A stretch of 64,000 nucleotides of DNA from Escherichia coli. GTDB lineage: Bacteria; Pseudomonadota; Gammaproteobacteria; Enterobacterales; Enterobacteriaceae. The translations under genes were made by a program, and so were the position numbers. Position 1 is the stretch's first letter. Each line of letters starts with the position of its first letter. The notes under the pieces were generated by a model. The model was not told the origin of the DNA, searched no databases, and worked only from the letters and a program-made list of their open reading frames with translations. The stretch is taken from assembly GCF_013315695.1 (NCBI RefSeq), contig NZ_CP054353.1. One strand, written 5' to 3'. This document shows, piece after piece, positions 12,801-44,173 of this stretch.

Positions 12801-13505
12801 CAGGCCGATCGCATTGCGATGATTACCCCGGAGAACGGCAACACCACGCCGCTGTTTGTGGCGCAGGGGAATCAGCTGTTCATGAACGACGTGTTCCTGA
12901 AGCGACTGTTTGCGGTGAGCATCACGTCATCCGGCAATCCTCCGACGTTTTCCCTGACGCCGGATGGCAGGCTGACAGCCCGCAATGCGGATATCAGTGG
13001 AGCCATCACGGCGAATACCGGCACGCTCAATAATGTCACCATTAACGAGAACTGTGTCATCAGAGGGAAACTGTCTGCAAACCAGATTGAAGGCGATCTC
13101 GTTAAAACAGTGGGTAAGGCTTTCCCCCGTGACTCCCGTGCACCGAAGCGTTGGCCATCAGGAACCATTACCGTCAGGGTTTATGACGATCAGCCGTTTA
13201 ACCGGCAGATTGTTATTCCGGCGGTGGCTTTCAGCGGTGCCAGACATGAGCGGGAGAACAGCGATACTTATTCGTCATGCCGCCTGATAGTGAAGAAAAA
13301 CGGTGCTGAAATTTATAACCGTACCGCGATGGATAATACGCTGGTTTACAGTGGTGTTATTGATATGCCTGCTGGTCGCGGCCACATGACGCTGGAGTTT
13401 TCTGTATCAGCATGGTGGGTAAATGGCTGGTATCCCACAGCAAGTATCAGCGATTTGCTGGTTGTTGTGATGAAGAAAGCCACTGCAGGCATCACGATTA
13501 GCTGA
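9813..13505 (+). CDS. J: Host specificity / central tail fibre protein J
   Basis: 1230 aa; N-terminal 850 aa and C-terminal 270 aa colinear with lambda gpJ; extra coiled-coil segment in between. Confidence 0.95.
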
Positions 13506-13572: not shown

Positions 13573-14172
13573 ATGCGTAAATTATGTGCAGCCATTTTGT
13601 CCGCAGCCATCTGTCTGTCCGTATCCGGTGCGCCTGCATGGGCGTCTGAACATCAGTCCACACTGAGCGCGGGGTATCTTCATGCCCGTACGAACGCTCC
13701 CGGCAGCGATAATCTGAACGGGATTAACGTGAAATACCGTTATGAGTTTACGGACACGCTGGGGCTGATTACGTCCTTCAGTTATGCCAATGCTGAGGAT
13801 GAGCAAAAAACGCACTACAACGATACCCGCTGGCATGAAGATTCCGTGCGTAACCGCTGGTTCAGCGTGATGGCGGGGCCGTCTGTACGCGTGAATGAAT
13901 GGTTCAGCGCGTATGCGATGGTGGGTGTGGCTTACAGCCGTGTGTCGACTTTCTCCGGGGATTATCTCCGCGTAACTGACAACAAGGGGAAAACGCACGA
14001 TGTGCTGACCGGAAGTGATGACGGTCGCCACAGCAACACGTCTCTGGCGTGGGGGGCTGGCGTGCAGTTTAACCCGACCGAATCCGTGGCCATTGATATT
14101 GCTTATGAAGGCTCCGGTAGTGGTGACTGGCGCACTGACGGTTTCATCGTGGGTGTCGGTTATAAGTTCTGA
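13573..14172 (+). CDS. lom: Outer membrane protein Lom (Ail/PagC family)
   Basis: 199 aa; nearly colinear with lambda Lom including signal peptide. Confidence 0.9.
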   Translation: MRKLCAAILSAAICLSVSGAPAWASEHQSTLSAGYLHARTNAPGSDNLNGINVKYRYEFTDTLGLITSFSYANAEDEQKTHYNDTRWHEDSVRNRWFSVMAGPSVRVNEWFSAYAMVGVAYSRVSTFSGDYLRVTDNKGKTHDVLTGSDDGRHSNTSLAWGAGVQFNPTESVAIDIAYEGSGSGDWRTDGFIVGVGYKF

Positions 14173-14236: not shown

Positions 14237-16303
14237 ATGGCAGCAGTAAAAATCTCAGGTGTGCTGAAAGATGGTGCGGGAAAACCAATACAGAACTGCA
14301 CTATTCAACTGAAGGCAAAGCGTAACAGCACCACGGTACTGGTGAACACGGTGGCCTCTGAAAATCCGGATGAAGCCGGGCGTTACAGCATGGATGTTGA
14401 GTATGGCCAGTACAGCGTCACCCTGCTGGTTGAAGGTTTTCCACCTTCACATGCCGGGACCATTACCGTCTATGAAGGTTCCAGACCAGGTACGCTGAAT
14501 GATTTTCTCGGTGCCATGACGGAGGATGATGTTCGTCCGGAGGCACTGCGCCGTTTTGAGCTGATGGTGAATGAAGTGGCACGTCATGCCGGAGCGTCAT
14601 CACAGAGTGCAGCGGCGGCAAAGAAATCCGAAACGGCAGCAGCCTCATCGAAGAATGCGGCGAAAACCTCAGAAACGAATGCAGCTAACAGCGCACAGGC
14701 GGCAGCGGCCTCGCAGACTGCATCGGCAAACTCCGCGACAGCAGCCAAAAAATCAGAAACCAGCGCGAAAAATAGCGAGACAGCCACAAAGGCCAGCGAA
14801 AAAAACGCAAAATCCAGCCAGACGGCAGCGAAAACCAGTGAGACGAATGCCAAAGACAGTGAAGCCAACGCAAAGGTGAGCGAAACAGCGGCGGCGAACT
14901 CGGCGAAAGCATCGGCAGCAAGCCAGACGGCAGCAAAAGCAAGTGAAGATGCTGCCAGAGAATACGCAAACCAGACAGCAGAGCCGTACAGATATGTTTT
15001 ACAGCCGCTGCCGGATGTGTGGATACCCTTTAATGATTCGCTGGATATGATTACGGGCTATTCTCCGGGTTATAAAAAAGTGAAGATTGGTGATAATGTG
15101 GTTCAGGTTGCCAGTGATAAACAGGTTAATTTCAGTCGCGCATCAACGGCAACATATATCAACAAATCTGGCGAACTGAAAACGGCGGAAATTAATGAGC
15201 CACGATTTGAGTGTGATGGCCTGCTTATTGAGGGGCAAAGAACGAACTTCTTCCCGAACAGTACAGACCCTTCGAAGTGGAATAAGTCAACTTCACTGGA
15301 CGTTACAGAAACAGGCACAGATAGTTTCGGGTTTAATTATGGCCGGTTTGTCGTACAGGATTCGATTGTTGGTACAAGTAAAGCGCATACCATTATCGGA
15401 CTGTATTCGAGTACCGGAGGGGTTGATACTTCAGGGGACGAAAAGCATGTAACTATATCCTGTCGGGTAAAAAGTGAAGTTGATAATATCGCCGTTCGTA
15501 TTTTATTTGAACATTATGATGGGGAGGTAAGGACATCAATAGGAGCAGCAAACCTGAACCTTACCACCCGCATAATTAGCAAGACAGGTCAGACAAGCCG
15601 TGTTACAGCAAGGTCTGTTAAGGATGATGCAACTGGCTGGATATTTTTTGAGGCTACATTAAAAGCAGATACAACAGAAAATACGGTTGGTGGTTTTGTC
15701 CAGTATTCTCCGGATACAGGGCAGATGGTTGCATCAGGGGATTATCTCGATGTAACCACTCCACAGATTGAGGCTGGTACAGGCGCATCATCTTTTATTG
15801 TTACGGGGACGGCACCGGTAACGCGGGCAAGCGATATGGTTACAGTTCCGATTAAGAATAATCTTTATAATCTTCCTTTTACGGTTCTTTGTGAGGTACA
15901 TAAGAACTGGTATAAAACGCCAAATGCAGCACCGCGTGTTTTTGACACATACCGGCATCAGGCAGATGCGGGGATCGTAATGGGGTTTGGTTCATCAGGT
16001 GGGTACGACGGTTTTCCGTATTGCGATATAGGTGGTTCAGACCGACGAATAAATGAAAATGCCGGGCTGGAAAAAATGCTTATTGGTATGCGGGTAAAGT
16101 CCGAACGGTCCACATGTGTAGTCAGTAACGGTAAGTTAAGCAGCGAAACTAAAACCAAATGGGAATATATCCGGAGTACAGCAACCATTCGCATTGGTGG
16201 ACAAACTACAGCAGGATTACGCCATTTATTTGGGCATGTGAGGAATTTTCGTCTCTGGCATAAAGAGCTAACAGATGCGCAGCTTGGGGAGGTTGTGGAG
16301 TGA
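14237..16303 (+). CDS. stf: Side tail fibre protein, lambda Stf-like N-terminus with divergent C-terminal receptor-binding domain
   Basis: First 120 aa match lambda Stf (AVKISGVLKDG...), then Ala/Ser/Thr-rich SETNA/AAKxSE repeats, then about 400 aa with no lambda counterpart; start set at ATG 14237. Confidence 0.75.
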   Translation: MAAVKISGVLKDGAGKPIQNCTIQLKAKRNSTTVLVNTVASENPDEAGRYSMDVEYGQYSVTLLVEGFPPSHAGTITVYEGSRPGTLNDFLGAMTEDDVRPEALRRFELMVNEVARHAGASSQSAAAAKKSETAAASSKNAAKTSETNAANSAQAAAASQTASANSATAAKKSETSAKNSETATKASEKNAKSSQTAAKTSETNAKDSEANAKVSETAAANSAKASAASQTAAKASEDAAREYANQTAEPYRYVLQPLPDVWIPFNDSLDMITGYSPGYKKVKIGDNVVQVASDKQVNFSRASTATYINKSGELKTAEINEPRFECDGLLIEGQRTNFFPNSTDPSKWNKSTSLDVTETGTDSFGFNYGRFVVQDSIVGTSKAHTIIGLYSSTGGVDTSGDEKHVTISCRVKSEVDNIAVRILFEHYDGEVRTSIGAANLNLTTRIISKTGQTSRVTARSVKDDATGWIFFEATLKADTTENTVGGFVQYSPDTGQMVASGDYLDVTTPQIEAGTGASSFIVTGTAPVTRASDMVTVPIKNNLYNLPFTVLCEVHKNWYKTPNAAPRVFDTYRHQADAGIVMGFGSSGGYDGFPYCDIGGSDRRINENAGLEKMLIGMRVKSERSTCVVSNGKLSSETKTKWEYIRSTATIRIGGQTTAGLRHLFGHVRNFRLWHKELTDAQLGEVVE

Positions 16304-23295: not shown

Positions 23296-24147
23296 TTAAC
23301 TCGCGTAAGCTGCCAGCATTTCCTGCGCCGCCAGTTTACCCAACGCATTCGCTGCAAAAGGACTGTCGCCGGTGAGAAGTTTACGGTCCTTATGTACTCG
23401 CCCGGTGATGTCGTCATTAATGATGTTCATGCCCATTTTCTTCAACTCTTCGCCGAAGTACCAGGTGAGATGACCCGGCATATAGCCAATATCTGGCGTT
23501 TGTTTGTCTGCGGCGTCTGGGAATGCGCAAATAGAATAACCATTCAGTGGGTTATCGCTGTGGCGAAGTGCCAGAAAAGCCGCCGGACCGTGGCAAAGGG
23601 AGATAACAAAACGGTCATTTTTGATTGCCCACTGTAAAGCGGCAGCCACGTCCTGGCTTTCTGGTAAACCAATAAGTGCGCCATGCCCACCAGGAACAAA
23701 GATTGCTGCATATTCGCTATCAGCGTTGAGGCTGGCGACAACATCCGCGAGTTTCTTCGGATTACGGAATAACGATTTATGCTGTTCAAAGAATGGCATT
23801 ACTTTTTCATCTTTGTGCGGCATAGCCCAGTATTCAAACTTGGTCATCAGACCGGAAATGGTCGCCACTTCGAATTCGAAACCTGCAGCATGGAGATGAT
23901 ACAACGGCAGCAACGTTTCAATCGGATGGTTACCGGTCGAGAACAGTTTTCCGTTATCGGTCGGCAAATAACGTTCGTCCGCGGCGATCACCAGAATTTT
24001 ATGTTTACCGCGATACGGTTTTGGATAGTCCACGCCATCAAGATCAGAGACGGGACTCGTATATTGGCTAAGCGAATATTCTGAAGGGAAGAACGCATTA
24101 TCTTCAGCAATATCGACCTGCGGGTTTTTACTTGTTTGAACAGTCAT
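23296..24147 (-). CDS. hchA: Hsp31 glyoxalase/chaperone HchA
   Basis: 283 aa; DJ-1/PfpI fold with conserved Cys (ISLCHGPAA); matches E. coli HchA. Confidence 0.9.
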   Translation of the reverse strand: MTVQTSKNPQVDIAEDNAFFPSEYSLSQYTSPVSDLDGVDYPKPYRGKHKILVIAADERYLPTDNGKLFSTGNHPIETLLPLYHLHAAGFEFEVATISGLMTKFEYWAMPHKDEKVMPFFEQHKSLFRNPKKLADVVASLNADSEYAAIFVPGGHGALIGLPESQDVAAALQWAIKNDRFVISLCHGPAAFLALRHSDNPLNGYSICAFPDAADKQTPDIGYMPGHLTWYFGEELKKMGMNIINDDITGRVHKDRKLLTGDSPFAANALGKLAAQEMLAAYAS

Positions 24148-24662
24148 AGTGTATTCCTTATTGTTGCTTAGTTAGGGTAGTCACTATATTTGCGACTGAG
24201 CTGGTCGCTATTTTTAACCAGGCTGAAAAATTGAGTCAATATATCGAAAGCGGTAGTTGGCGGGCATAAGTATGTAATGATGATGCTGCACTGGTGTTGA
24301 ATATTATTCACGCCAAACTTTCCTTATTGAGTAACGTCGTCGCAAGTGGCCTCAATGATTTTAGACCATTATCAGAGGTTTGGGGGCGATGGGGAGAGAT
24401 TTAGTGCTGTGGAATGTTGTGGTACTGATGAATATTTATATCCCGGATTGGTAGGGAAAAAGCTTTTTTCATGCACTATTTTTGCAAATATTTCTATATG
24501 GGAAGCGGTTTTGTTACAGATTAAATTTATAAAGAAATGCATTTGGGGTGTTGGCTGGAAGAGTTGCTGGTAGAGGATATTGTGCCAGGAGGGGCAGGGT
24601 AAGTGGCTGTATCGAGATGCTTTGGCAATTGCGTGTGCCGCAGATGGAGATGAAATGCCAAT

Positions 24663-24700
24663 AAAAAAAGCCTGAGTTCGATGAGGGACGAACTCAGGCT
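24663..24700 (-). terminator. Rho-independent terminator of yedS
   Basis: GCCTGAGTTCG-atgaggga-CGAACTCAGGC 11-bp stem; A-run on plus strand gives a U-run on minus. Confidence 0.6.
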
Positions 24701-24742
24701 GGTGTTATGTTTTACAGTAACACGCCTCGGCGCGTTGGCTGA

Positions 24743-25801
24743 TTAGAACTGGTAGACGATACCAACTGCCAGTTGGTCGTCGGTGTTCAGTCCATGAGCG
24801 AGAACATAATCACTCTTATCAAGCAGGTTGATCTGATAAGCGGTATATACGTTCATATTCTTATTGAAGTAATACCAGGTACCGATTTCAATATAGTTCA
24901 GACGATCAGAATCTTTGTAACCTGCTACGTCCAGTGCTTTAGAATAGGAGTAACCGATGGATGGACGCAGACCAAAGTCGAACTGATATTGCAGAACAGC
25001 TTCGAAGTTTTGTGTTTTGTTCACAACATCACCGTCGTCGGAATTCATGTTGTGAGATTCACCGTACATCACAGCAGCATAGACATTGTTAGCGTCATAT
25101 TTTGTTGACAACGCCCAAACTTCGGCTCTTTCGCCTTTACCATCACCAGACTGCCAATCAGTACGGTCAGAGTTTGCATAAGCACCAGCAAATGAGAAAC
25201 CGTCAATAGTGTAAGTTGCAGATAAACCATGGCCATCGCCATTTGCTTTGTAGTTGCCTGTACCTTCATTTTTACCCTGATATTGCAGAGCAAAATTTAG
25301 ACCTTCAACCATGCCAAAGAAATCTGTGTTACGATAGGTTGCAACACCGTTGGTACGGTTGGTCATGAACAGGTCAGTACCAGCCCATGAGTCACCGCCC
25401 CACTCAACAAACATATCAGTAAATGCTTCTGCATCATACGCGACACCGACATTACGACCGTAGTCGAATGAACCAAAATCTTTGTAACTCAAACCAGCAT
25501 ATGCCAAACGAGTTTGGTCAGGGTTGTGTCTGTTTGATGCTTCCAGGTCTAGTTCAAACTGACCGTAACCAGTCAGTTCAGGGTTGATCTGAGTTTCACC
25601 TTTCACGCCTACACGGGCATAAGAGGTATCTTGAGAATTATCGCCTTTTTCACCATTTTCACGGTCGGTCAGAATGCGCTCACCAACCATCTTGCCGTAT
25701 AGCTCAACTTTATTGCCATTTTTATTATAAATTTCAGCCGCATTTGCTGCGCCAGCAACTAATAACGCCGGGACCAGCATTGCCAGAACTTTTCTTTTCA
25801 T
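24743..25801 (-). CDS. yedS: Outer membrane porin (OmpC/OmpN family), YedS-like, apparently intact
   Basis: 352 aa from MKRKVLAM...; signal peptide, C-terminal ...VGIVYQF typical of general porins. Confidence 0.8.
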   Translation of the reverse strand: MKRKVLAMLVPALLVAGAANAAEIYNKNGNKVELYGKMVGERILTDRENGEKGDNSQDTSYARVGVKGETQINPELTGYGQFELDLEASNRHNPDQTRLAYAGLSYKDFGSFDYGRNVGVAYDAEAFTDMFVEWGGDSWAGTDLFMTNRTNGVATYRNTDFFGMVEGLNFALQYQGKNEGTGNYKANGDGHGLSATYTIDGFSFAGAYANSDRTDWQSGDGKGERAEVWALSTKYDANNVYAAVMYGESHNMNSDDGDVVNKTQNFEAVLQYQFDFGLRPSIGYSYSKALDVAGYKDSDRLNYIEIGTWYYFNKNMNVYTAYQINLLDKSDYVLAHGLNTDDQLAVGIVYQF

Positions 25802-26349
25802 TATGTATTCCCTTGTGATTATAATCTTCATGAATATATCAATAAGTGCTGTTATCCAAAAAAAGCACATTTGGATACTATTCTATGAAGTTCATTTTAT
25901 TTTAAAGATTACATGTAACAAATGTATTTAAAAGATTTCAAAATGTTTCTAATCTATTTAATATAATTCATAGTTATGAATTCTGAATATAAATATTCAC
26001 GAATATTATGGATATATATCAATATGTTATGAGTTGATCGAAAAGATAGGGAGTATCAATGATTGTTGCGCTAAACGGCTGGTGTGATCTCGCGCACATT
26101 AATGAAGGCATAAAAAAAAGCCGGCATCATGCCGGCCCAAAAAAATATAAACAAGACGATAAAAGGCTAATAACGGAGGCATGATGACACAGAAAAATAA
26201 AAAGGTATAATTGTAATCAGTACCAATATATTGATTGAATGAATTAATAAAGCCGAAATCAAAGATAAATAACATCGTTCAAATCGATTTTTCCTGTATT
26301 CACCGCCGTTGCGCAAAATTTATCTATTTGTTCAAAAAATGATTGAGTC

Positions 26350-26733
26350 TTGACTGGCTCATCCAATGTGGAAAAATGTGACTTTTATCACATAATAGTT
26401 CTAAGTCTGAATTTTCCGGGTTATCTCAAAATGGAATACGGTTCGACAAAGATGGAAGAGAGACTCTCTCGCAGCCCTGGCGGCAAATTGGCTTTGTGGG
26501 CTTTCTATACATGGTGTGGCTATTTCGTCTGGGCAATGGCGCGATACATCTGGGTGATGAGCCGGATCCCCGATGCCCCCGTGTCGGGATTTGAAAGTGA
26601 TTTAGGATCTACCGCGGGGAAGTGGTTAGGAGCATTGGTCGGATTTCTGTTTATGGCCCTGGTTGGTGCCTTGTTAGGCGGCATTGCATGGTACACCCGA
26701 CCTCGTCCCGCACGTTGCAGACGCTATGAATAA
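26350..26733 (+). CDS. yedR: Inner membrane protein YedR (start uncertain: ATG 26350, in-frame GTG 26368 or ATG 26431)
   Basis: Translation contains MEYGSTKMEERLSRSPGGKLALWAFYTW... and two TM segments as in YedR. Confidence 0.7.
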   Translation: MTGSSNVEKCDFYHIIVLSLNFPGYLKMEYGSTKMEERLSRSPGGKLALWAFYTWCGYFVWAMARYIWVMSRIPDAPVSGFESDLGSTAGKWLGALVGFLFMALVGALLGGIAWYTRPRPARCRRYE

Positions 26734-31834: not shown

Positions 31835-32626
31835 GTGCAGCACGAGACAAAAATGGAAAACCAGAGCTGGTTGAAAAAACTCGCACGCCGCCTGGGGCCT
31901 GGTCATATCGTTAATCTCTGCTTTATCGTGGTATTGCTTTTTTCCACCTTGCTCACCTGGCGTGAAGTGGTGGTGCTGGAAGATGCCTATATCTCCAGCC
32001 AGCGTAATCATCTGGAAAACGTAGCCAACGCGCTCGATAAGCATTTGCAGTATAACGTCGACAAACTGATCTTTTTGCGTAATGGCATGCGCGAAGCTCT
32101 CGTGGCGCCACTGGATTTCACCTCTCTGCGTAATGCCGTAACCGAGTTCGAACAGCATCGCGACGAGCACACCTGGCAAATCGAACTCAACCGACGGCGC
32201 ACCCTGCCAGTCAATGGCGTATCGGATGCATTAGTCAGCGAGGGGAATCTCCTGTCTCGCGAAAATGAAAGCCTCGACAATGAAATTACCGCTGCACTGG
32301 AAGTTGGTTACTTGCTGCGACTGGCGCACAACTCCTCGTCGATGGTTGAACAGGCGGTGTATGTCTCGCGTGCTGGATTTTACGTTTCGACGCTGCCGAC
32401 CTTGTTTACGCGCAATGTACCAACGCGTTATTACGGCTATGTCACCCAACCCTGGTTTATCGGCCATTCACAACGAGAAAATCGTCACCGCGCGGTACGC
32501 TGGTTCACTTCGCAACCGGAACACGCCAGCAATACTGAACCGCAGGTTACCGTCAGTGTTCCGGTAGACAGTAATAACTACTGGTTGATCAGACATGAGA
32601 TAAATGAAGGGGGATCCGTGAGATAA
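31835..32626 (+). pseudogene. dgcQ: Diguanylate cyclase DgcQ (YedQ), 5' fragment only (periplasmic sensor domain); truncated by prophage insertion
   Basis: About 264 codons matching the DgcQ N-terminal region, then a premature stop in phage-derived sequence; no TM or GGDEF domain follows. Confidence 0.8.
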
Positions 32627-32628
32627 AT
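32596..32628 (+). repeat. Two direct copies of TGAGATAAAT, 23 bp apart, at the prophage left terminus (candidate transposase-binding end repeats)
   Basis: Copies at 32596-32605 and 32619-32628, immediately after the point where the dgcQ frame diverges. Confidence 0.4.
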
Positions 32629-32781
32629 AACGAATTGGAGTGGGTTAACATGGGTTCTGGTGAACAGAACTGAAATTCTTTTCCGCTATACGATAGATAA
32701 GTCGGGCATTGAAATCATCCTTCCTGGCAACTTAGAATCGAGTTTGCTGAAACATGACCCGTAACAAAAAGGATGATTCCA

Positions 32782-32943
32782 ATGACTACTCAAAACAATA
32801 AGCATGACAGCCTGGATTACTCAGAAAAGCCCAAAAGCAAGCACATTGTGACGTTCGAGCGCGATTCCGGTAGAAAAGGAGAATCGTCTTCCTCTGCCAA
32901 TAAAACCACTATGCCGGCAGCTCCTGCTCCAGGGAAAAAATAA
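32782..32943 (+). CDS. Hypothetical small hydrophilic protein (53 aa)
   Basis: ATG with AAAGGA-like RBS 8 nt upstream; below the ORF-track length cutoff; no recognisable similarity. Confidence 0.25.
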   Translation: MTTQNNKHDSLDYSEKPKSKHIVTFERDSGRKGESSSSANKTTMPAAPAPGKK

Positions 32944-32946
32944 ACA

Positions 32947-33579
32947 TCATTCATCGTTCGTTGCACGAACGCGCCTGATCTCCACTCTGGCAATCTGATC
33001 TGCTGGAATATAGGTTGCCAGAGCTCCCCAGTACTTATCAACCACGCCTTTATACTCTTCCCATTCGTTACTTCCTGAAGGGCTGCTGTGCGTGACGTAA
33101 AGAACCATATCGCCTTTATTTCCCAGGGTAAACGGACCGTTAGGCCACTCTTCAAAGTTCCCTGGCAGCCGTGACATCATACCGGAACCATCGCGAAGAA
33201 TCACTCTGACCTCGGTGACGCTGAAGCCTGTTTGATCAAACATTGCCTGCCATGCTGAGCTGGTATTGTCAGACCATGAAATATCATTATTCCACAGTAA
33301 TCTGTACATCCATTTGCGACCGTACCTGCGCCACCACGCACCGCATGTAACGGCACACAGAAGTGCTGGGGGGGTTGCCAGCCAGGCATTCAGACCTGCC
33401 CACATAACAGCCTGGTAAGCCATCATTGCTGTCAGGCCAAAAATCAGCGAAGAAAAAGTCACCTCAATGGGTTTGTGGTGATCCTTCAGCCCCACATTCG
33501 CAATAAAATACCCAATATAGCCACTGGTCAGGGTCACCAGTGTTGCCCATGGCAGATTTAATAACGAAACGTCAAACAT
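32947..33579 (-). CDS. Hypothetical membrane protein (3 N-terminal TM segments plus about 110-aa soluble C-terminal domain), terminal gene of early operon
   Basis: Start set at ATG 33579 preceded by GGGAGA; ORF track gives 33657. Confidence 0.6.
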   Translation of the reverse strand: MFDVSLLNLPWATLVTLTSGYIGYFIANVGLKDHHKPIEVTFSSLIFGLTAMMAYQAVMWAGLNAWLATPPALLCAVTCGAWWRRYGRKWMYRLLWNNDISWSDNTSSAWQAMFDQTGFSVTEVRVILRDGSGMMSRLPGNFEEWPNGPFTLGNKGDMVLYVTHSSPSGSNEWEEYKGVVDKYWGALATYIPADQIARVEIRRVRATNDE

Positions 33580-33693
33580 ATTTTCTCCCGGCATCCTGAA
33601 TATTACATAGAGAGCATAAAAAAAGCACGGTAAAGGGTCTACCGTGCTCTTATACAATAAGGAGATTTTTGAAAGGACTTTAACAAGCAGGAA

Positions 33694-34092
33694 TTATCTG
33701 GATTTGTTAACGTCTTTCGTCTCCTCTGGCAGATCTTCATCAAACAACCTGCCCTGCATCCGATCCAGTTCTTCTTTTCTGACCCGCTTAACCACGCTGT
33801 AGACCCACTGAAGCGAAACACCAAAATTGCGGGCCAGTTCGTGGTGGTTGCGTCCGTTAAACTCCCTGAAGATTTCCCGGTCGCGCTGACTGACCTTCCA
33901 TACCATGCCCATCGGGAAATAAACGTTTTGCCCGCCCCAGACCTGCATCATTCGGTTCGCGACGGCCTGACCAATCTGGTCGGCAATTGCGGGCTCAATA
34001 TCAATAATCTCGCGAACGGTCTCAGAGGTATGCTGTGCCAGTTCCACCAGGAGTTCCGGCCCTTTACTTCGAAACTGATTCAGGTCGCTCAT
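33694..34092 (-). CDS. mor: Mor/C-family transcriptional activator (middle/late gene activator)
   Basis: 132 aa; C-terminal HTH ...ELARNFGVSLQWVYSVVKR... typical of the Mu Mor/C family. Confidence 0.7.
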   Translation of the reverse strand: MSDLNQFRSKGPELLVELAQHTSETVREIIDIEPAIADQIGQAVANRMMQVWGGQNVYFPMGMVWKVSQRDREIFREFNGRNHHELARNFGVSLQWVYSVVKRVRKEELDRMQGRLFDEDLPEETKDVNKSR

Positions 34093-34555
34093 GTTTTACT
34101 CCCGCAGCTCTGCGCTGCCACTTCTTCAGTTTCTCAATAACACTGCTTGCCTGTTCAGTATTGAGCCAGCGCAGGGCGCTGATGCCCGTTTCCCGCTTGA
34201 TCCACCGCGCTAATGCATTTTCTGAACGGTCACGAACAATGCCGGCAGCAGCCATTTCAAGCCATAGCGCACGGATTTTCCTGGACTGCGGATGGTTATC
34301 CAGCGGTAAACCGGAGCTGGCTTTTCTGGCAGGCTTAACGCGAAAGCCTTTCCTTTTCATGGATTCCAGCACGCAGTTTAGTTGTGTGGTATCCATTCCT
34401 TTGGTTGAGGCTTTACCGGTCAGCCCCTGTAACATCTGGCGGTAGGTGTCTTCATCCATACCCAGTTCATTACGGGCAATATGAATGAGCTGGATAAGAC
34501 GTTGTTTAGTCATCATCGTTGCTCCTTTTACCTGCGCCACCGATATAATCGACAT
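34064..34555 (-). CDS. gemA: GemA-like protein (Mu gp16 family, DUF1018)
   Basis: 163 aa; similarity to Mu GemA/gp16-type proteins. Confidence 0.65.
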   Translation of the reverse strand: MSIISVAQVKGATMMTKQRLIQLIHIARNELGMDEDTYRQMLQGLTGKASTKGMDTTQLNCVLESMKRKGFRVKPARKASSGLPLDNHPQSRKIRALWLEMAAAGIVRDRSENALARWIKRETGISALRWLNTEQASSVIEKLKKWQRRAAGVKHERPESVSK

Positions 34556-34877
34556 ATAAAGGAAGCGCCACAGGCCAGCACAGGAACATCACCGACCAGC
34601 TAATCCAGTAGCCGGCACCACTGTAACGTGAATAAAACCCTGAACGGCGGTGCAGTTCAGCAGTACACCAACCGACAAAACAATACCAGAACAGGGCACA
34701 TACAACAGATTCAGCCGTCATTCTGAATATCCCCCCAACTGATATGAATATTACGGGCAGCAATGACAGGGTCGTTATTCCACCATGCACCTGACATGTA
34801 TTTTTCAACCTGTTCGCGTCCGGCAATAACACCAATTGTGATCCCCGGCCTGACGTTCTTAAAAAAGGCGCGGGCAA
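34506..34877 (-). CDS. Hypothetical small membrane protein (real start probably the internal Met, about 71 aa)
   Basis: Hydrophobic ORF in the early-operon orientation overlapping the gemA 5' end. Confidence 0.3.
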   Translation of the reverse strand: MPAPFLRTSGRGSQLVLLPDANRLKNTCQVHGGITTLSLLPVIFISVGGIFRMTAESVVCALFWYCFVGWCTAELHRRSGFYSRYSGAGYWISWSVMFLCWPVALPLYVDYIGGAGKRSNDDD

Positions 34878-34937
34878 AAAGGTATCTGGCAGATATTCGG
34901 CAGGCTTTTAATTTCCGGCTGTTACCTGATAGCGTAA

Positions 34938-35657
34938 TCATCTGGCCTCCAGTTTCTGTTGTTCCTGCCCACTGACCGGGCGGTGCAGTCTGACGTTCTG
35001 CCCTTCACGAAACCCCGCATAGCGCGAGGCGTCGCCATTGCGGCTTCTTCCCGGTTTACGCGCCCTGGTGGTTTGCGTCTGCGGGTATTTATGTTCCAGC
35101 CACTGCTGCATCAGTTCACGCTCATCATCGGTCAGGGCAAAGGACTGTATTTCACTGATAACGGCCAGCACCCAGCCTTCGGCAAACTGGTCTCCACGGC
35201 TGGTGCGGGTGGCGGTTTTTATTCTTTTGTTCTGTGCACTGATATACTGCTGACGCGCCTTTTTCAGCTGACGGGCCAGCACTTCCCAGGTGTATGCAGC
35301 CAGTGCCGCACGTTCCCGGTTGCCGTAGAACCCCACAGACGGGTGCGTGCCGGGGTGAATGATGGAGTTAACACCAAATACCTCGCGGATGATGTTCATC
35401 AGGCCCAGCATGTAGCGCGGTGGACGGAGACTGCCTGTCGGCCAGTAGTGACTGATGGTTTCATCAATATCACTCATAGCAATGTCGGAATGTGTGATGC
35501 CGTGAACATCCATCAGTTTACGGGCTCGGCGCAGTGCCAGAGCGGCCTCGTGCGGGTTGCCGGATGCGGCCAGCGCCAGCAACTTTTTCAGTTTCTCAAT
35601 GTGTTTATTCTGGTCTGTCATTGTTCTGTATCTCCGGTATTTTTCTGCCGTTTCCAT
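34938..35657 (-). CDS. DUF2786-like early protein
   Basis: 239 aa; N-terminal KLLALAASGNPHEAALALRRARKLM motif typical of this Mu-like prophage family. Confidence 0.5.
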   Translation of the reverse strand: METAEKYRRYRTMTDQNKHIEKLKKLLALAASGNPHEAALALRRARKLMDVHGITHSDIAMSDIDETISHYWPTGSLRPPRYMLGLMNIIREVFGVNSIIHPGTHPSVGFYGNRERAALAAYTWEVLARQLKKARQQYISAQNKRIKTATRTSRGDQFAEGWVLAVISEIQSFALTDDERELMQQWLEHKYPQTQTTRARKPGRSRNGDASRYAGFREGQNVRLHRPVSGQEQQKLEAR

Positions 35658-35833
35658 GCCCGGACAGCGTCGGACAGCTCTTTCAGGCTGTATGCTGCTT
35701 TAAGCTTTTCCCATAACCACTGTGTTGTTATGTGCATCAGCAGGGCAGCCAGGGCTGCCCCCGCACTGAGGCATGTCGCCAGGCCAGTAAGAATCAGTGT
35801 CCATGCGGTGATTTCCCTGAGTATGTCAGCCAT
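35618..35833 (-). CDS. Hypothetical small membrane protein (71 aa)
   Basis: One TM segment; in operon orientation. Confidence 0.4.
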   Translation of the reverse strand: MADILREITAWTLILTGLATCLSAGAALAALLMHITTQWLWEKLKAAYSLKELSDAVRAWKRQKNTGDTEQ

Positions 35834-35847
35834 TGAATGCCTCCCGG

Positions 35848-36144
35848 TTACTCGTTCGTGTAAATCACGCCCAGTCGTGCAGCCAGACGTTCCAGTTTTT
35901 TCTGTTTGTGGAAGTCAATCAGCCGGTCCATCCCCTGAAGGCGCAGTTGCTCTGTCATGATTTCCACGTCTGCCAGCTCTGCCGCGAGGTCACTTTCGCT
36001 GCCCTGTCCGTTCAGGTTGCGGGCGGCACTGGCCGCCAGTTCAGCGGCCTCTTCTGCCAGTTTCAGGGCCTGTGCGTCCGGCCCGAAACGCTGCAGGGCC
36101 AGACGGTAGAGGGCGGTGCGGGTGAGTTCGGTGTTTCGTGTCAT
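35848..36144 (-). CDS. Small MazG-like nucleotide pyrophosphohydrolase domain protein
   Basis: 98 aa; ...LKLAEEAAELAASAA...ELADVEIMTEQL... resembles the MazG/HisE-type helical NTP-PPase core. Confidence 0.5.
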   Translation of the reverse strand: MTRNTELTRTALYRLALQRFGPDAQALKLAEEAAELAASAARNLNGQGSESDLAAELADVEIMTEQLRLQGMDRLIDFHKQKKLERLAARLGVIYTNE

Positions 36145-36153
36145 GCCGCGCCC

Positions 36154-36426
36154 TCAGTGCTTCCGGCTGACGGTGATGTGCAGGCCGCCTTCTGCAGTGG
36201 TTTCCATCCGGTACGGCACCTCATGCTCTGCCGTGTGGGTGAGTGTGTTCATCAGTACCTGCAGGGCAGCCTCCTTTCCGTTGGTCGCCACAATGGCCTG
36301 TGTGGCCATGCTGATTAGCGCCGTCAGGACGTGATTCACATCGGTGAGGTCGCGGCATTCACACTCGTTGACATAGTGTTCAACAAGGGTTCGGGTGCGC
36401 TGTCGTGCTTCCTGTGGGGTAATCAT
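36154..36426 (-). CDS. Hypothetical protein (90 aa)
   Basis: ORF in early-operon orientation, compact spacing. Confidence 0.4.
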   Translation of the reverse strand: MITPQEARQRTRTLVEHYVNECECRDLTDVNHVLTALISMATQAIVATNGKEAALQVLMNTLTHTAEHEVPYRMETTAEGGLHITVSRKH

Positions 36427-36617
36427 TGCGCGTCCTCCCTGTCAGGGCGGGAGAATTCCATGACGGGCACGTCCGCCGAAAAATGCTGGCTGCAGTACGG
36501 GCAGACCAGGGTGACACGTACTGCAGGTATGTGATACTTACCGGACATCACGGCGATGGCGCTGTGAAAACGCAGGGCTGTTATATCCCTCTCGCACTGA
36601 ATACATTTAAATATCAT
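36423..36617 (-). CDS. Small zinc-ribbon protein
   Basis: 64 aa with CxxC (CIQC) ... CPYC motifs. Confidence 0.45.
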   Translation of the reverse strand: MIFKCIQCERDITALRFHSAIAVMSGKYHIPAVRVTLVCPYCSQHFSADVPVMEFSRPDREDAQ

Positions 36618-36714
36618 AATTTAATTCTCCTCTGTTTCCGGCGTGCAGAAGCCCACGGCGCTGACGCCGGAATAAAAAAGAAAATGTTTTTATTAAATAA
36701 TTAACGTGGTGTGT

Positions 36715-37245
36715 TTACTGCACATCCTGCTCAAAAGGAATTATTGAAAAATCCTCAATGTCGCTTTTAATGGAAATACCGGGAATATTTTTCACGGCCT
36801 CTTTTTCATTCAGAATGGCATCTTTATTTATTTCCTCCTTTACACGAATAAAGCGCTCAAGCCCCAGACGTCTCAGCAGTTCAATGACATTATCCGCCCC
36901 GCGAATGCTGACTGACGGCGGACGGTTTCGCCACTGCACCTCGCCGGTGGTGAGGTTAGCGAACTTCACCTTCCCGTTGCCGGTCAGTTCATCACGGTGC
37001 GCCTCACACCATGTCTGGATACCGGACTGCAGTTCGGCCATGCGTTTTTTCAGGCTCTCGGTGAGCGGGGCATAACGTGCAGTGATGTCGCCAATGGTGT
37101 CATTCATTTCTGTTTCAGCCCTGACCAGTTCACGTTGCGCGTCACCAAGCAGTCTGATTCCCTCAATGACCTCTTCGCGTGTCCCCGGCACCCAGAGTGC
37201 TGCTGCGGCTTTGATACGTTTTGCCCCTTTTGTACTTTTTGCCAT
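36715..37245 (-). CDS. gam: Host-nuclease inhibitor Gam (Mu Gam / Ku-like)
   Basis: 176 aa; near-colinear with Mu Gam (MAK...KRIK.AAA...ETEMND...GKVK.ANL.TG.V.WR.RPPSVSIRG...FIR.K.EINK.AIL...EDFSIIPFEQ). Confidence 0.95.
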   Translation of the reverse strand: MAKSTKGAKRIKAAAALWVPGTREEVIEGIRLLGDAQRELVRAETEMNDTIGDITARYAPLTESLKKRMAELQSGIQTWCEAHRDELTGNGKVKFANLTTGEVQWRNRPPSVSIRGADNVIELLRRLGLERFIRVKEEINKDAILNEKEAVKNIPGISIKSDIEDFSIIPFEQDVQ

Positions 37246-37272
37246 ATTTTATGACTCCTCCTGTTGTGCTGA

Positions 37273-37542
37273 TTACCACAAAGATTCCGGCCACACGACG
37301 CGACAGCCGTGCAGTTCGAAAACGCCCTGACGGAAATATCCCCTGTGGTCATGTCCGGTATACAGATAACAGGCCTTTCCCTGCTCAAGCATGCGCATGC
37401 AATGCGCACTCCGGGAAACGCGGATGACAGGTTTGTTACCCCTGATGGTGATGCTTTGTACATCCGTGTTCGTCGCCTTAAGCGCCATAATGGCTGACTG
37501 CACTTTGCTGATTTGCTGGTTGATACCTGTGGTGGATTTCAT
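37273..37542 (-). CDS. Hypothetical protein (89 aa) in the kil-region position
   Basis: ORF between B and gam. Confidence 0.4.
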   Translation of the reverse strand: MKSTTGINQQISKVQSAIMALKATNTDVQSITIRGNKPVIRVSRSAHCMRMLEQGKACYLYTGHDHRGYFRQGVFELHGCRVVWPESLW

Positions 37543-37544
37543 TA

Positions 37545-38711
37545 TTAAACCCCTTTGACAACGTCAGCGTTGACCTGTGGAACCCCGATTTCAGCGGCCA
37601 GATTCATGGCGGCTATCACCAGGTTACTGACGGCCAGCGGATACAGCAGGCTGACCATATTTTTACGATGACTTCCCGGATTGCTCAGGCGGGCACGTAT
37701 GGCATCCACTGCGCTGGCGTCCATAATGTCCGTCAGTTGTTTACCGGCCCGTTGCAGTTTGAACGTCAGAAATTCTTCAAGGTTATTGTCCAGAGGCAGA
37801 AGTTCGACCACCTCACAACGCTGAACGACTTCACGGACTTCCATATTGCGTTCAGACAGTTTTGTCGCCAGTTCCGGCTGGCCAATCAGCACGATGGACA
37901 GCAGTTTTTTGAAACCGGACTCCAGCTCAAAAAAGCGTTTGAGGTGTTTCAGTGTCGGAATGGGCAGACTGTGGGCCTCCTCAATCACCAAAACGTGGCT
38001 GAACCCCGCCTGGCTGCTGTCTTTCAGGACGCGATGCAACTGGCGAAAGCGGGCGTCCTGACTGCGTCTGATGCTTTCCAGTGGTGCGATGGTACTGATA
38101 ATGGCTTCGGCAATCGCTGCTGCCTTCAGGGTTTTCCCTTTCACATCGTTGTCTTCCATAGCGATGATGTATGGCTCGATAACAATTACCGGCGCATTCT
38201 CGCGGTTGATACGTTCAGTCAGGTCGCGGCGCAGCGTGGATTTACCCGCACCGGACTCACCGATGACGGCCATAAACCCACCATGACGGGCTGTCTGGTA
38301 CAACGCCTCACGCACGTAGCGAATGTCCGGGGTGGTGAACACATCATCAGAACCCTGCATGGCTTCATCGGCGAACGGGTCACGGAAAAGACCAAACGCT
38401 TTTTTGGTTGCTGGAAATAACACCTGTTTTTTGAGTAACATATTCTCTTCCTCACTGAGGCTCGTTTTATCTGTGGTACCCGCTGTACGGGGCGTGGCTG
38501 CGCCCTGTACAGCATCAAAACTCTTCGTTGTATCAATCCCCTGACTTTCCAGCCAGGACGCAAGACGCCGGCGCACTTCTCCGGGGCTGGTGCGGGGCCA
38601 CGCGTTATGATTCACAATCTGGGCCAGCGTGGCCTCAGAAACATCGACAGCTCTCGCCACCACCGCCTGTGGGATACGGGCCTCTTTCAGTTGCTGCTTC
38701 AGTACCAGCAT
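37545..38711 (-). CDS. B: Transposition ATPase B-like (AAA+, TniB/ExeA-type Walker A GESGAGKST)
   Basis: 388 aa from ATG 38711 preceded by GAGGAGG; N-terminal HTH-like segment, central P-loop ATPase; immediately downstream of transposase. Confidence 0.7.
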   Translation of the reverse strand: MLVLKQQLKEARIPQAVVARAVDVSEATLAQIVNHNAWPRTSPGEVRRRLASWLESQGIDTTKSFDAVQGAATPRTAGTTDKTSLSEEENMLLKKQVLFPATKKAFGLFRDPFADEAMQGSDDVFTTPDIRYVREALYQTARHGGFMAVIGESGAGKSTLRRDLTERINRENAPVIVIEPYIIAMEDNDVKGKTLKAAAIAEAIISTIAPLESIRRSQDARFRQLHRVLKDSSQAGFSHVLVIEEAHSLPIPTLKHLKRFFELESGFKKLLSIVLIGQPELATKLSERNMEVREVVQRCEVVELLPLDNNLEEFLTFKLQRAGKQLTDIMDASAVDAIRARLSNPGSHRKNMVSLLYPLAVSNLVIAAMNLAAEIGVPQVNADVVKGV

Positions 38712-38721
38712 GTTTTCCTCC

Positions 38722-40491: not shown

Positions 40492-40494
40492 TGG

Positions 40495-41409
40495 TTATGC
40501 CTCCAGCCCGTTAATCTGTGGCGTCGGCTCAGTCAGCCATGAAGGCGCTGCATTGCCTGTTGGCTCGTCCGGCAGGTCAAATGTGGAGCGCAGGCTACGC
40601 GCTGTGCTTTCCAGTTGACAGACCAGGCCTGCCATGAAGTCTCTGGGGGTATCAATCATGTTTTCAGCACAATATGCGCACAGCGTCTCAAAAGCGCTGG
40701 ACAGTCGGACGGCGATAGCAGATTCCGCCTCAACCGCTAATGCTGTTACTTCCGCCCGCAGCTTCTTAACCTCCTCATCAGGCTCAGGCGGCTGAATACG
40801 GGATTTCTTCTCCAGTCTGGTGGAGAGTGAATCTATTTTTTCATTTTTGTCGGCGAGTACGCGCTGTTGTGCTGCGTTGGTTTCGCGCGCTTCGCGCAGG
40901 GCCTGACGCAATTCACGTACTGACATGCGATCAACGTCGTCAAGCGTCAGGCCGGCAACTGTGCCGCCGTCGGCCAATTCATCAAGTTCTTCATTATCCA
41001 GAACCATCAGGTCGTACAGTTTGGCTTTCCCCAAAACGCTCAACGTTGAGCGTTTTGTTGGCTCATCACCTTCTCCCAAAAACTTCATACTGGCTTGCAT
41101 CATGCGGCGAGCAACTTGTGGTGCAAGTCCGAGTTCATTTTCTAAAATGTTTGTAAAATCACCGTGTGGCTCATTTTCTTTTAAGATGATCAGCCGCTTA
41201 CCCGCTTCCAGCATAGATTCAGCACTCTGCGCCATATAAAAACGTGCTTCGTGAACAATGCGATCACGTTCATAAGGCAGTCCATCACCAAACTGCTGCA
41301 TAATTTCCATGCGATGCTGTGTCATAGCGTTCAAATTGACATTGATGTTATCTGACAGCGGAACCTCAACATTCAGTTCAGTGTTAACGGGTGATTTGGT
41401 GCGTCCCAT
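40495..41409 (-). CDS. Hypothetical coiled-coil early protein (304 aa)
   Basis: ORF between the Ner-like regulator and transposase; long acidic coiled-coil; no confident family assignment. Confidence 0.45.
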   Translation of the reverse strand: MGRTKSPVNTELNVEVPLSDNINVNLNAMTQHRMEIMQQFGDGLPYERDRIVHEARFYMAQSAESMLEAGKRLIILKENEPHGDFTNILENELGLAPQVARRMMQASMKFLGEGDEPTKRSTLSVLGKAKLYDLMVLDNEELDELADGGTVAGLTLDDVDRMSVRELRQALREARETNAAQQRVLADKNEKIDSLSTRLEKKSRIQPPEPDEEVKKLRAEVTALAVEAESAIAVRLSSAFETLCAYCAENMIDTPRDFMAGLVCQLESTARSLRSTFDLPDEPTGNAAPSWLTEPTPQINGLEA

Positions 41410-41419
41410 TGATTACTCC

Positions 41420-41728
41420 TTACAAACGACTACCTGAAATAACTCGTTGGTTGATTTCGTTAATACGATCCTGTGCACGCGCCATCTCGTGACTGTGAGC
41501 CATGGCGATCTGTAGTAACTGGATTCCCGGTGCGAAACGTCCGTTCTCTAATTTCATGGCCAGTCCCTCTTCAATAAGGGTATTAAGTGCTCGATTGATA
41601 TTCGCCGGGGACTCCCCCAGGGCTGATGCCAGTTCACCGTTAGAAACACCGTTCAGAGCATGACCGCGTAGAGCTTTGAGTACACGTAGGATGCGGGTCC
41701 CAGAACTGGAAATATTTACTTTACTCAT
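41420..41728 (-). CDS. Winged-helix DNA-binding protein (102 aa from internal Met)
   Basis: ...GELASALGESPANINRALNTLIEEGL... wHTH-like; ORF track start 41791 would overlap the upstream gene. Confidence 0.45.
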   Translation of the reverse strand: MSKVNISSSGTRILRVLKALRGHALNGVSNGELASALGESPANINRALNTLIEEGLAMKLENGRFAPGIQLLQIAMAHSHEMARAQDRINEINQRVISGSRL

Positions 41729-41780
41729 GTCACATTTCCATTTTTGCAATATGTGATAACCTGTTGCATATGTGGAAAAT

Positions 41781-43464: not shown

Positions 43465-43545
43465 AAAATAACAGCTGAATTACCATGGGATCAGAAAAAA
43501 GACAAAGGCGGCATCATGCTGCGTTCTGAAATTTTAATGTAAAAG

Positions 43546-44136: not shown

Positions 44137-44173
44137 TGCAGCCCTTCAGGGCTGTTTCTGTTCAGGAGGTATC

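What the first reader, a model, noticed from the sequence alone, without database searches (positions are those of the whole stretch)
24743..25801. yedS porin reading frame is intact in this strain
The OmpC/OmpN-family porin between hchA and yedR has an uninterrupted 352-codon frame with signal peptide and the C-terminal porin signature. In the K-12 lineage this locus is, as I recall, a pseudogene, so an intact copy may be relevant for permeability or phage-receptor phenotypes.
Basis: partly seen in the sequence, partly recalled or inferred. Interest (0 to 1): 0.2.

Follow-up and report, generated by a model that had tools for sequence, protein, structure and literature searches.

The report
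Intact porin gene at yedS locus
The gene is a genuinely intact outer-membrane pore gene sitting where laboratory E. coli K-12 has the broken yedS gene, but it is a common, already annotated and quite different version of that gene (60% identical protein), so the finding is correct but ordinary.

Summary
Observation confirmed. Window 24743..25801 (-) is an uninterrupted 352-codon porin ORF with a signal peptide, a 16-strand barrel, an intact constriction zone and a C-terminal ...YQF. It lies between hchA and rseX/drpB(yedR). K-12 yedS (b4496) is indeed a pseudogene, with exactly two lesions (Gln162 amber; 1-nt deletion in codon 221) relative to a 99.7%-identical intact allele.

The window gene is not a repaired K-12 yedS. 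Its protein is only 59-60% identical to K-12-type YedS, about as far as from OmpC, OmpF, PhoE or OmpN. It falls below the NCBIfam OmpC cut-off that K-12-type alleles pass.

The drpB-hchA slot in E. coli holds at least four deeply diverged porin cassettes in two clades. They share a near-identical promoter region, rseX, 5'UTR and signal peptide upstream, and a similar (about 82-100%) terminator-side flank. The window type occurs in about 21% of 5,426 complete genomes. The exact protein is on at least 1,000 public contigs and is annotated "porin" (WP_000824389.1). Against ST131, a roughly 1.24-kb recombination tract swaps only the cassette.

Expression is untested. An AT-rich upstream region suggests H-NS-silenced, quiescent behaviour like Salmonella ompS1. 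Already known; low interest. The cassette polymorphism is the only mildly novel aspect.

The parts
24743..25801 (-). Porin CDS: 352 codons plus TAA stop. 'Type A' allele of the drpB-hchA (yedS) porin slot; RefSeq WP_000824389.1 'porin'.
   Evidence: The exact protein is on at least 1,000 contigs. dN/dS is 0.165 against a 97% sub-allele.
25739..25801 (-). Signal-peptide codons (residues 1-21, MKRKVLAMLVPALLVAGAANA). They are 100% identical in protein in all seven allele types compared, and the DNA here is 100% identical.
24463..25703 (-). Recombination tract that distinguishes the window from the ST131 allele in an otherwise near-identical background. It covers the mature-porin coding part plus about 280 bp 3' of the stop.
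   Evidence: 2 differences in 2,501 bp upstream; 366 within 25703..24770; 18 within 24669..24463; then 8 in about 1,860 bp.
24669..24700 (-). Intrinsic-terminator-like hairpin (12-bp stem, 7 G-C pairs) followed by TTTTTTT, 43 nt after the stop codon.
   Evidence: sequence.
25802..26112 (-). 5' regulatory region and 5'UTR of the porin gene. It is very AT-rich (GC 21-27%), 87-100% conserved across all allele types in 60-bp windows, and contains AAGGGA 8-13 nt before the ATG. A candidate H-NS-silenced region (inference).
   Evidence: Weak promoter-like hexamers at 25987..25960 and 25921..25894 are no more frequent than in shuffles.
26083..26098 (+). CRP-type palindrome TGTGATCTCGCGCACA. It corresponds to the in-vitro CRP footprint listed for K-12 'yedS' (ggTGTGAtcaggcGCACAtta).
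   Evidence: unique in the window; preprint PMC12871828.
26113..26203 (-). rseX Hfq-binding sRNA with its own terminator. It lies in tandem upstream of the porin gene, ending 311 nt before the porin ATG.
   Evidence: Rfam RF01401, 90.8 bits against a gathering score of 50; terminator 26138..26118.
23296..24147 (-). hchA, the downstream flank of the slot.
26452..26733 (+). drpB (yedR), divergently transcribed; the upstream flank of the slot. The slot is conserved next to drpB in E. fergusonii and K. oxytoca, and next to yedJ-dcm in Citrobacter.

Best explanation
The gene encodes a complete, selectively maintained, general-diffusion trimeric porin (Porin_1 / OmpF-OmpC-PhoE superfamily). It occupies the chromosomal slot next to rseX-drpB where K-12 has the yedS pseudogene.

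Inferred mechanism, from homology:
- Sec export via the 21-residue signal peptide.
- BAM insertion via the C-terminal ...YQF.
- A 16-stranded barrel whose L3 loop (FTDMFVEWGGD; D129, E133) faces a basic ladder (K37, R63, R98, R149). This forms a constriction that passes small hydrophilic solutes, plausibly including beta-lactams.
- Unusually short surface loops L4-L7.

It is one of at least four deeply diverged 'cassettes' (type A) that segregate at this one locus in E. coli. The cassettes are exchanged by homologous recombination between the conserved 5' region (promoter, 5'UTR, signal peptide) and the 3' flank.

Because the upstream region is shared by all alleles and is 21-27% GC, the gene is most likely expressed at low level and H-NS-silenced under laboratory conditions. 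That would match what is reported for the adjacent rseX in K-12 and for Salmonella ompS1. It would then act as an alternative porin when de-repressed. This step is inferred, not shown.
For: Intact frame and family:
-.
- Full-length alignments to solved porins: OmpK35 E 2e-132, then PhoE and OmpF; 60% identity to OmpK35.
- The AF2 model shows 16 strands, though mean pLDDT is only 63.
- Pore-lining residues are conserved in the alignment to OmpF.

Purifying selection: dN/dS is 0.165 against the 97% sub-allele, and 5 of the 10 amino-acid changes fall in aa 216-225, four of them in loop L5.

Commonness:
- The exact protein is on at least 1,000 contigs, in a 90% cluster of 2,356 members.
- The type-A 3' half is in 1,165 of 5,426 complete genomes.
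- It is annotated as an intact 'porin' in MSB1_4I, FDAARGOS_536, ECSD228 and an E2348/69 derivative.

Cassette structure:
- Flanks are 82-100% identical in nearly all 60-bp windows (one drpB-side window drops to 63% in K-12), with signal-peptide codons at 100%. Identity of the mature coding part varies widely by window (mostly about 25-80%), with the drop starting after the signal peptide and ending at the stop codon.
- Surface loops L1, L2, L6 and L7 are 0-30% identical, L4, L5 and L8 16-57%, against strands at 58-75%.
- Against ST131 there is a roughly 1.24-kb tract in near-identical flanks.
- Other types counted: B 1,654, C 380, D about 1,668 genomes.

Syntenic clade-I porins sit next to drpB in K. 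oxytoca and E. fergusonii, and next to yedJ-dcm in Citrobacter.

Regulation lead:
- Upstream GC is 21-27%.
- rseX and 'surrounding areas' are de-repressed in hns mutants of K-12 (PMC8313858).
- Salmonella ompS1 is quiescent, H-NS/StpA-silenced and LeuO-activated (PMC4264507).
- K-12 yedS is equated with ompS1 in PMC2731931.
Against: There are no expression or protein data for this strain, so an intact frame does not show that the porin is made. The promoter scan found nothing above the shuffle expectation. The H-NS/LeuO model is transferred from K-12 rseX and from Salmonella ompS1; K-12 yedS, which one paper equates with ompS1, belongs to the other clade at this locus. The AF2 model is only of moderate confidence. 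The allele-type counts come from megablast with 3'-half queries. The hit table does not display pseudogene flags (K-12 derivatives are listed simply as 'porin OmpC'), so intactness across all 1,165 genomes was not verified individually.
Confidence: 0.85

Rival explanations
1. The gene is intact by sequence but functionally silent: a cryptic gene that is never expressed and is on its way to decay, as already happened independently in K-12 and in O157:H7 Sakai.
For: K-12 has two lesions. Sakai has a different, independent frameshift. The upstream region is AT-rich and probably H-NS-bound. No convincing sigma-70 promoter was found.
Against: dN/dS is 0.165 within type A. The identical protein is on at least 1,000 contigs. 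All constriction-zone residues are retained. The slot is kept with intact porins in Klebsiella, Citrobacter and E. fergusonii. Both pseudogenes examined here (K-12 and Sakai) are of the K-12-like long (clade II) type.
Confidence: 0.1
2. The window allele is a recent horizontal import of a foreign (Klebsiella/Enterobacter-like OmpK35/OmpF-type) porin that replaced the native yedS.
For: The best solved-structure match is K. pneumoniae OmpK35. The L3 motif VEWGGD is shared with OmpK35 and differs from the PEFGGD of OmpC/OmpF/K-12 YedS. Replacement is confined to a roughly 1.24-kb tract.
Against: Identity to OmpK35 is only 60%. The closest named non-E. coli relatives are 66-69% identical (K. oxytoca, Enterobacter, Citrobacter, E. 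fergusonii), whereas every named hit of 77% or more is E. coli. Those relatives sit at the same syntenic slot (beside drpB, or beside yedJ-dcm in Citrobacter) and are closer to E. coli type B than to type A. Type A itself splits into two sub-alleles with dS 0.08 that are spread over different backgrounds. This points to an old polymorphism within Escherichia exchanged among E. coli lineages, not a recent inter-genus import.
Confidence: 0.05

Closest known systems
E. coli K-12 yedS pseudogene (b4496; formerly b1964-b1966) and its intact 397-404-aa alleles ('type D')
   Same: It occupies the same chromosomal slot, rseX/drpB-[porin]-hchA. The 5' regulatory region is 87-100% identical in 60-bp windows, the signal peptide is identical, and the terminator-side flank is similar.
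   Different: The protein is 59-60% identical. Apart from an alignable 5' portion of the gene, the mature coding DNA does not align. K-12-type alleles have a PEFGGD L3 loop and long L4-L7 loops (28/23/17/13 residues against 14/12/7/3). They pass the NCBIfam OmpC-subfamily cut-off, and their nearest paralogue is OmpN at 71-72%. K-12 carries an amber codon and a frameshift.
Functional YedS of a carbapenem-resistant clinical E. coli (Warner et al. 2013, Antimicrob Agents Chemother 57:1935)
   Same: It is the precedent that an intact gene at this locus can be an active porin relevant to carbapenem entry. PMC4048246 and PMC11267920 cite it in that sense.
   Different: The paper is not held, so I could not determine which allele type was studied. 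My recollection that MarA acts on it through MicF is from memory only. A duplex prediction gives no MicF pairing with the window's translation-initiation region (z +0.5, against -4.9 for ompF).
Salmonella OmpS1 (quiescent porin; H-NS/StpA-silenced, LeuO- and OmpR-dependent)
   Same: PMC2731931 equates K-12 yedS with ompS1. The proposed regulatory logic, a silent AT-rich promoter, is borrowed from it.
   Different: No Salmonella sequence was compared here. No regulation was tested.
Klebsiella pneumoniae OmpK35 (OmpF orthologue; PDB 9hn1, 5o77)
   Same: It is the best solved-structure match over the full length (E 2e-132). It shares the VEWGGD L3 motif, has similar short loops and is of comparable length.
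   Different: Identity is only 60%. The window's locus was tested and lies between drpB and hchA; that OmpK35 itself sits at the ompF locus is from my own knowledge, not checked here. Klebsiella oxytoca has a separate 351-aa porin (69% identical) at the drpB slot.
Other E. coli alleles at the same slot: type B (357 aa; 371 aa in ST131/UTI89, WP_000824383.1) and type C (387 aa)
   Same: Same slot and same flanks; the ST131 flanks are virtually identical to the window's. Type B belongs to the same clade I, with VEWGGD.
   Different: Type B is 68-70% identical and type C 59%. Loop lengths differ.

Membership tests
General-diffusion trimeric porins (Pfam PF00267 Porin_1; OmpF/OmpC/PhoE superfamily) | Sequence match to the family model above the curated threshold, over the whole mature protein | tested here: met
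   368.9 bits against a gathering score of 23.7; residues 27-352 match profile positions 1-337 of 337.
General-diffusion trimeric porins (Pfam PF00267 Porin_1; OmpF/OmpC/PhoE superfamily) | Cleavable Sec signal peptide; mature N-terminus AE(I/V)YNK | tested here: met
   Mature chains of solved porins align from query residue 22. Residues 1-21 are identical to those of all other alleles and near-identical to OmpC's.
General-diffusion trimeric porins (Pfam PF00267 Porin_1; OmpF/OmpC/PhoE superfamily) | 16-stranded beta-barrel with an inward-folded L3 loop | tested here: met
   End-to-end alignment to OmpK35, PhoE and OmpF structures. The AF2 model has 16 strands and a helix-containing segment at 115-152, but mean pLDDT is only 63.
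General-diffusion trimeric porins (Pfam PF00267 Porin_1; OmpF/OmpC/PhoE superfamily) | Constriction-zone residues: basic ladder (OmpF K16, R42, R82, R132) opposite acidic L3 residues (D113, E117). The OmpF numbering is from established knowledge of the OmpF structure. | tested here: met
   K37, R63, R98, R149, D129 and E133 of the window protein align with these positions (alignments).
General-diffusion trimeric porins (Pfam PF00267 Porin_1; OmpF/OmpC/PhoE superfamily) | C-terminal aromatic residue (Phe) as the outer-membrane assembly signal | tested here: met
   The protein ends ...VGIVYQF. Y350, Q351 and F352 are invariant in the alignment.
General-diffusion trimeric porins (Pfam PF00267 Porin_1; OmpF/OmpC/PhoE superfamily) | Trimer formation and pore conductance | not testable with these tools
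   Needs purification and bilayer or liposome-swelling assays.
NCBIfam OmpC subfamily (NF007841), OmpF (NF007446) and PhoE (NF007544) equivalogs | Score at or above the curated cut-off | tested here: not met
   OmpF 410.7 (cut-off 583); PhoE 407.9 (cut-off 599); OmpC 387.6 (cut-off 484). K-12-type and type-C alleles do pass the OmpC cut-off, at 541.6 and 519.8.
yedS locus gene (positional orthologue of K-12 b4496) | Position between rseX/drpB(yedR) and hchA, same orientation, shared regulatory region | tested here: met
YedS protein of the K-12 type (sequence orthologue) | Protein identity at the level usual for E. coli orthologues, with the gene alignable at DNA level along its length | tested here: not met
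   Identity is 59-60%. Apart from the first ~540 nt and one 85-nt stretch, the gene is not alignable to K-12 by blastn, and identity against all alleles drops right after the signal-peptide codons.
Quiescent OmpS1-type porin (H-NS/StpA-silenced, LeuO/OmpR-activated) | Silencing by H-NS and activation by LeuO/OmpR | not testable with these tools
   There are only indirect leads: upstream GC of 21-27%, H-NS repression of rseX and its surroundings in K-12, and the Salmonella data.
Quiescent OmpS1-type porin (H-NS/StpA-silenced, LeuO/OmpR-activated) | Sequence similarity to Salmonella OmpS1 | not tested
   No Salmonella sequence was fetched.

The most novel reading that the evidence does not exclude
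The drpB-hchA porin slot of E. coli is a balanced, multi-allelic 'cassette' locus. At least four porin types in two ancient clades share one promoter/5'UTR/signal-peptide module and one terminator-side flank. Clade I is OmpF/OmpK35-like, short-looped, with VEWGGD. Clade II is OmpN/OmpC-like, long-looped, with PEFGGD. The two clades are only about 60% identical. The cassettes are shuffled between otherwise near-identical genomes by tracts of roughly 1.2 kb, presumably under frequency-dependent selection from phages, colicins or antibody. On this view the K-12 'pseudogene versus intact' contrast is a side issue. I found no description of this in the 35 held papers that mention yedS.
Probability: 0.35. 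Interest if true: 0.4.

Novelty: already known. Interest (0 to 1): 0.15.

Why it matters
For this strain it means one more potentially usable general porin besides OmpC, OmpF, PhoE and OmpN. That could influence antibiotic (carbapenem/cephalosporin) entry, phage or colicin susceptibility and surface antigenicity if the gene is ever de-repressed. For annotation, it is a caution that 'yedS' names a chromosomal slot, not one protein. Results obtained with one allele (K-12 pseudogene, clinical YedS, Salmonella OmpS1) cannot be transferred to strains carrying another cassette. Pan-genome or resistance pipelines that score 'yedS intact/disrupted' by alignment to K-12 will misclassify about 60% of genomes.

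Tried and rejected
1. sRNA control. RNAduplex of MicF(1-36), MicC(1-36) and RseX(1-60) against -40..+30 of the window gene gave z = +0.53, -1.41 and -0.18. The positive controls worked: MicF-ompF -4.9, MicC-ompC -3.9, RseX-ompC -2.4. A first version with full-length RNAs was uninformative, and one script timed out. There is therefore no computational support for direct pairing of these sRNAs at the start region.

2. Promoter scan. Hits did not exceed the shuffle expectation.

3. Warner et al. 2013 could not be read, so it is used only as cited by others and from memory.

4. I used the hit tables' feature names to count intact versus pseudogene alleles. I rejected this because K-12 derivatives appear as 'porin OmpC' with no pseudogene flag.

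5. The AF2 model from a 9-sequence alignment reached only pLDDT 63. I used it only to delimit strands and ran no fold search, because the sequence match to solved porins is already decisive.

6. The longer 375-aa ORF starting at 25870 was rejected as the start.

7. The proteomics paper PMC9731836 mentions a porin '50% homologous to YedS' in an O26 strain, but its accession could not be mapped to an allele type.

Full report
**Observation.** On the minus strand, the window has an ORF from ATG at 25801 to TAA at 24745..24743. It is 352 codons with no interruption and translates to MKRKVLAMLVPALLVAGAANA|AEIYNK...VGIVYQF.
- Pfam Porin_1 matches the whole mature part (368.9 bits).
- Solved porins align end to end, and their mature chains start at query residue 22. 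This fixes a 21-residue signal peptide.
- The gene lies between hchA (23296..24147, -) and the rseX sRNA (26113..26203, -, Rfam 90.8 bits) followed by divergent drpB/yedR.
- A strong terminator-like hairpin follows the stop codon (24700..24669).
- The window is 100% identical over 25 kb to E. coli MSB1_4I (NZ_LR898874.1), where the gene is annotated as 'porin' WP_000824389.1 with no pseudogene flag.

**K-12 comparison.** MG1655 carries yedS (b4496) as an annotated pseudogene in the same slot. I aligned it to a 99.7%-identical intact 397-aa allele from strain W12-1. K-12 has exactly two lesions: C484T, which turns Gln162 (CAG) into an amber codon, and a single-base deletion at nt 663, in codon 221. 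O157:H7 Sakai has a different, independent frameshift.

The window gene is not the intact form of the K-12 gene.
- Its product is 59-60% identical to K-12-type YedS. That is no closer than to OmpC, OmpF, PhoE or OmpN of K-12 (54-57%).
- In a sliding comparison of the whole drpB-hchA interval from seven strains, identity to the window is 87-100% in nearly all 60-bp windows from drpB through rseX and the intergenic region.
- It is 100% in the signal-peptide codons and varies widely across the mature coding part (mostly about 25-80% per window). It recovers to 88-100% immediately after the stop codon, and the rest of the downstream flank is 82-100%.
- By structural element, strands are 58-75% identical and L3 is 61-76%. 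Surface loops L1, L2, L6 and L7 are 0-30% identical; L4, L5 and L8 are 16-57%.
- The window allele has the shortest L4-L7 loops of all: 14, 12, 7 and 3 residues, against 28, 23, 17 and 13 in the K-12 type (strand limits from the AF2 model).

**Allele types and frequencies.** Sequences from the slot fall into two deep clades.
- Clade I has VEWGGD in L3. It contains type A (window, 352 aa) and type B (357 aa; 371 aa in ST131/UTI89).
- Clade II has PEFGGD or a close variant (PVFGGD in type C). It contains type C (387 aa) and type D (397-404 aa, including K-12). Its nearest paralogue is OmpN (69-72%).
- NCBIfam places C and D above the OmpC-subfamily cut-off (519.8 and 541.6 against 484). A and B fall below every curated cut-off and score best with OmpF. 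This explains why PGAP calls some 'porin OmpC' and others just 'porin'.

Megablast with type-specific 3' halves over 5,426 complete genomes gave these counts:

| Type | Genomes |
|---|---|
| A | 1,165 |
| B | 1,654 |
| C | 380 |
| D | about 1,668 at 80% coverage or more |

Together this is roughly 90% of genomes. The exact window protein is recorded on at least 1,000 contigs, in a 90% cluster of 2,356 sequences. An intact gene here is therefore the rule, not the exception.

**Recombination.** The ST131 locus (type B, 371 aa) compares with the window as follows:
- 2 differences in 2,501 bp upstream;
- 366 differences between 25703 and 24770;
- 18 differences in the next roughly 280 bp (24669..24463);
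- 8 differences in the remaining roughly 1,860 bp.

This marks a cassette exchange of about 1.24 kb in a near-identical background. L004 and L003 (both 357 aa) differ in whether the first mature codons are window-like, which shows intragenic mosaicism.

**Origin.** Every named database hit at 77% identity or more is E. coli. The next relatives, at 66-69%, are from the K. oxytoca group, Enterobacter, Citrobacter and E. fergusonii. The three I inspected sit in the same slot: dcm-yedJ-drpB-porin in K. oxytoca, vsr-yedJ-drpB-porin in E. fergusonii, and dcm-yedJ-porin (no drpB gene called) in Citrobacter. They are closer to type B than to type A. The slot and clade I are therefore old in Enterobacteriaceae, and type A is a long E. 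coli branch. A recent inter-genus import is unlikely.

**Is it functional?**
- Within type A, the window allele and a 97% sub-allele give dN/dS = 0.165. Five of the 10 amino-acid changes fall in aa 216-225, four of them in loop L5.
- The residues that form the OmpF constriction are all present: K37, R63, R98, R149, D129 and E133 (the OmpF numbering is from established structural knowledge).
- I therefore take it to be a working general-diffusion porin gene.

Whether and when it is expressed is unknown.
- The 311 bp between rseX and the start codon are 21-27% GC and are shared by all allele types.
- In K-12, rseX 'and surrounding areas' are de-repressed without H-NS (PMC8313858).
- Salmonella ompS1, with which K-12 yedS has been equated (PMC2731931), is a quiescent, H-NS/StpA-silenced, LeuO-activated porin gene (PMC4264507).
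- A CRP-type palindrome at 26083..26098 corresponds to an in-vitro CRP footprint reported for K-12 yedS.

Conditional, normally low expression is thus my inference, not a result. Simple duplex predictions give no support for MicF, MicC or RseX pairing at the start region, although the positive controls work.

**Known or new.** The gene is annotated in RefSeq and is extremely common. An intact, active YedS relevant to carbapenem susceptibility was published in 2013 (Warner et al.; seen only as cited). The yedS-yedR intergenic region is even used as a host-tracking marker (PMC11267920). The finding as written is therefore already known and of low interest.

The one aspect I did not find described, in any of the 35 held papers mentioning yedS, is this: 'yedS' is a slot holding several about 60%-identical porin cassettes behind one shared regulatory and signal-peptide module. 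This is a modest, plausible lead for balancing selection on a surface protein. It is also a practical warning against using K-12 yedS as the reference for all strains.

Noticed in passing
window 31835..64000 (continues beyond the window end): A Mu-like transposable prophage is inserted in dgcQ (yedQ), the diguanylate cyclase that regulates cellulose synthesis. It carries Mor, gp16, Gam, an ExeA/MuB-like ATPase at 37545..38711, a MuA-like transposase at 38722..40491, repressor-region HTH genes, a lysis module and head and contractile-tail genes. Only a 5' dgcQ fragment (31835..32584) remains, annotated 'incomplete' in NZ_LR898874.1.
   Followed up: partly
window 1..~16900: This is the late half of a lambdoid prophage, next to zinT. 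It includes the major capsid gene, tail genes, gpJ at 9813..13505, a Lom/Ail-family outer-membrane protein at 13573..14172 and a tail-fibre gene at 14237..16303.
   Followed up: no
window 26113..26203 (-): The rseX sRNA is intact (Rfam 90.8 bits). It lies in tandem 311 nt upstream of the porin start. In K-12, micF sits beside ompC and micC beside ompN, so each of these porin genes has an adjacent sRNA gene. No RseX pairing with the porin's own start region is predicted.
   Followed up: partly
window 26083..26098 (+): A CRP-type palindrome, TGTGATCTCGCGCACA, is unique in the window. It matches the K-12 in-vitro CRP footprint assigned to yedS in a 2026 preprint (PMC12871828).
   Followed up: partly
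L019 6001..8772 (Escherichia fergusonii, GCA_002965935.1): Two porin genes lie in tandem at the drpB slot. The first is a clade-I gene (361 aa, same signal peptide as E. coli). The second is a 369-aa gene with a different signal peptide; its closest K-12 paralogues are PhoE and OmpN (65% each) and it passes the NCBIfam OmpC-subfamily cut-off. A TrkH-family gene and a DJ-1/PfpI-family (hchA-like) gene follow. This may bear on how several porin types came to share one slot.
   Followed up: partly
L008 2501..3687 (E. coli O157:H7 Sakai) and L001 8052..9244 (K-12): These are independent pseudogenisations of long K-12-like alleles: a different frameshift in Sakai, and an amber codon plus a 1-nt deletion in K-12. 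No disrupted clade-I allele was met among those inspected.
   Followed up: partly
window 24148..24742: The 595-bp hchA-porin intergenic region has a patch (24463..24669) that co-varies with the cassette type. PGAP sometimes calls small hypothetical ORFs on the opposite strand there in other strains (L003 3714..3908, L007 3698..4108).
   Followed up: no
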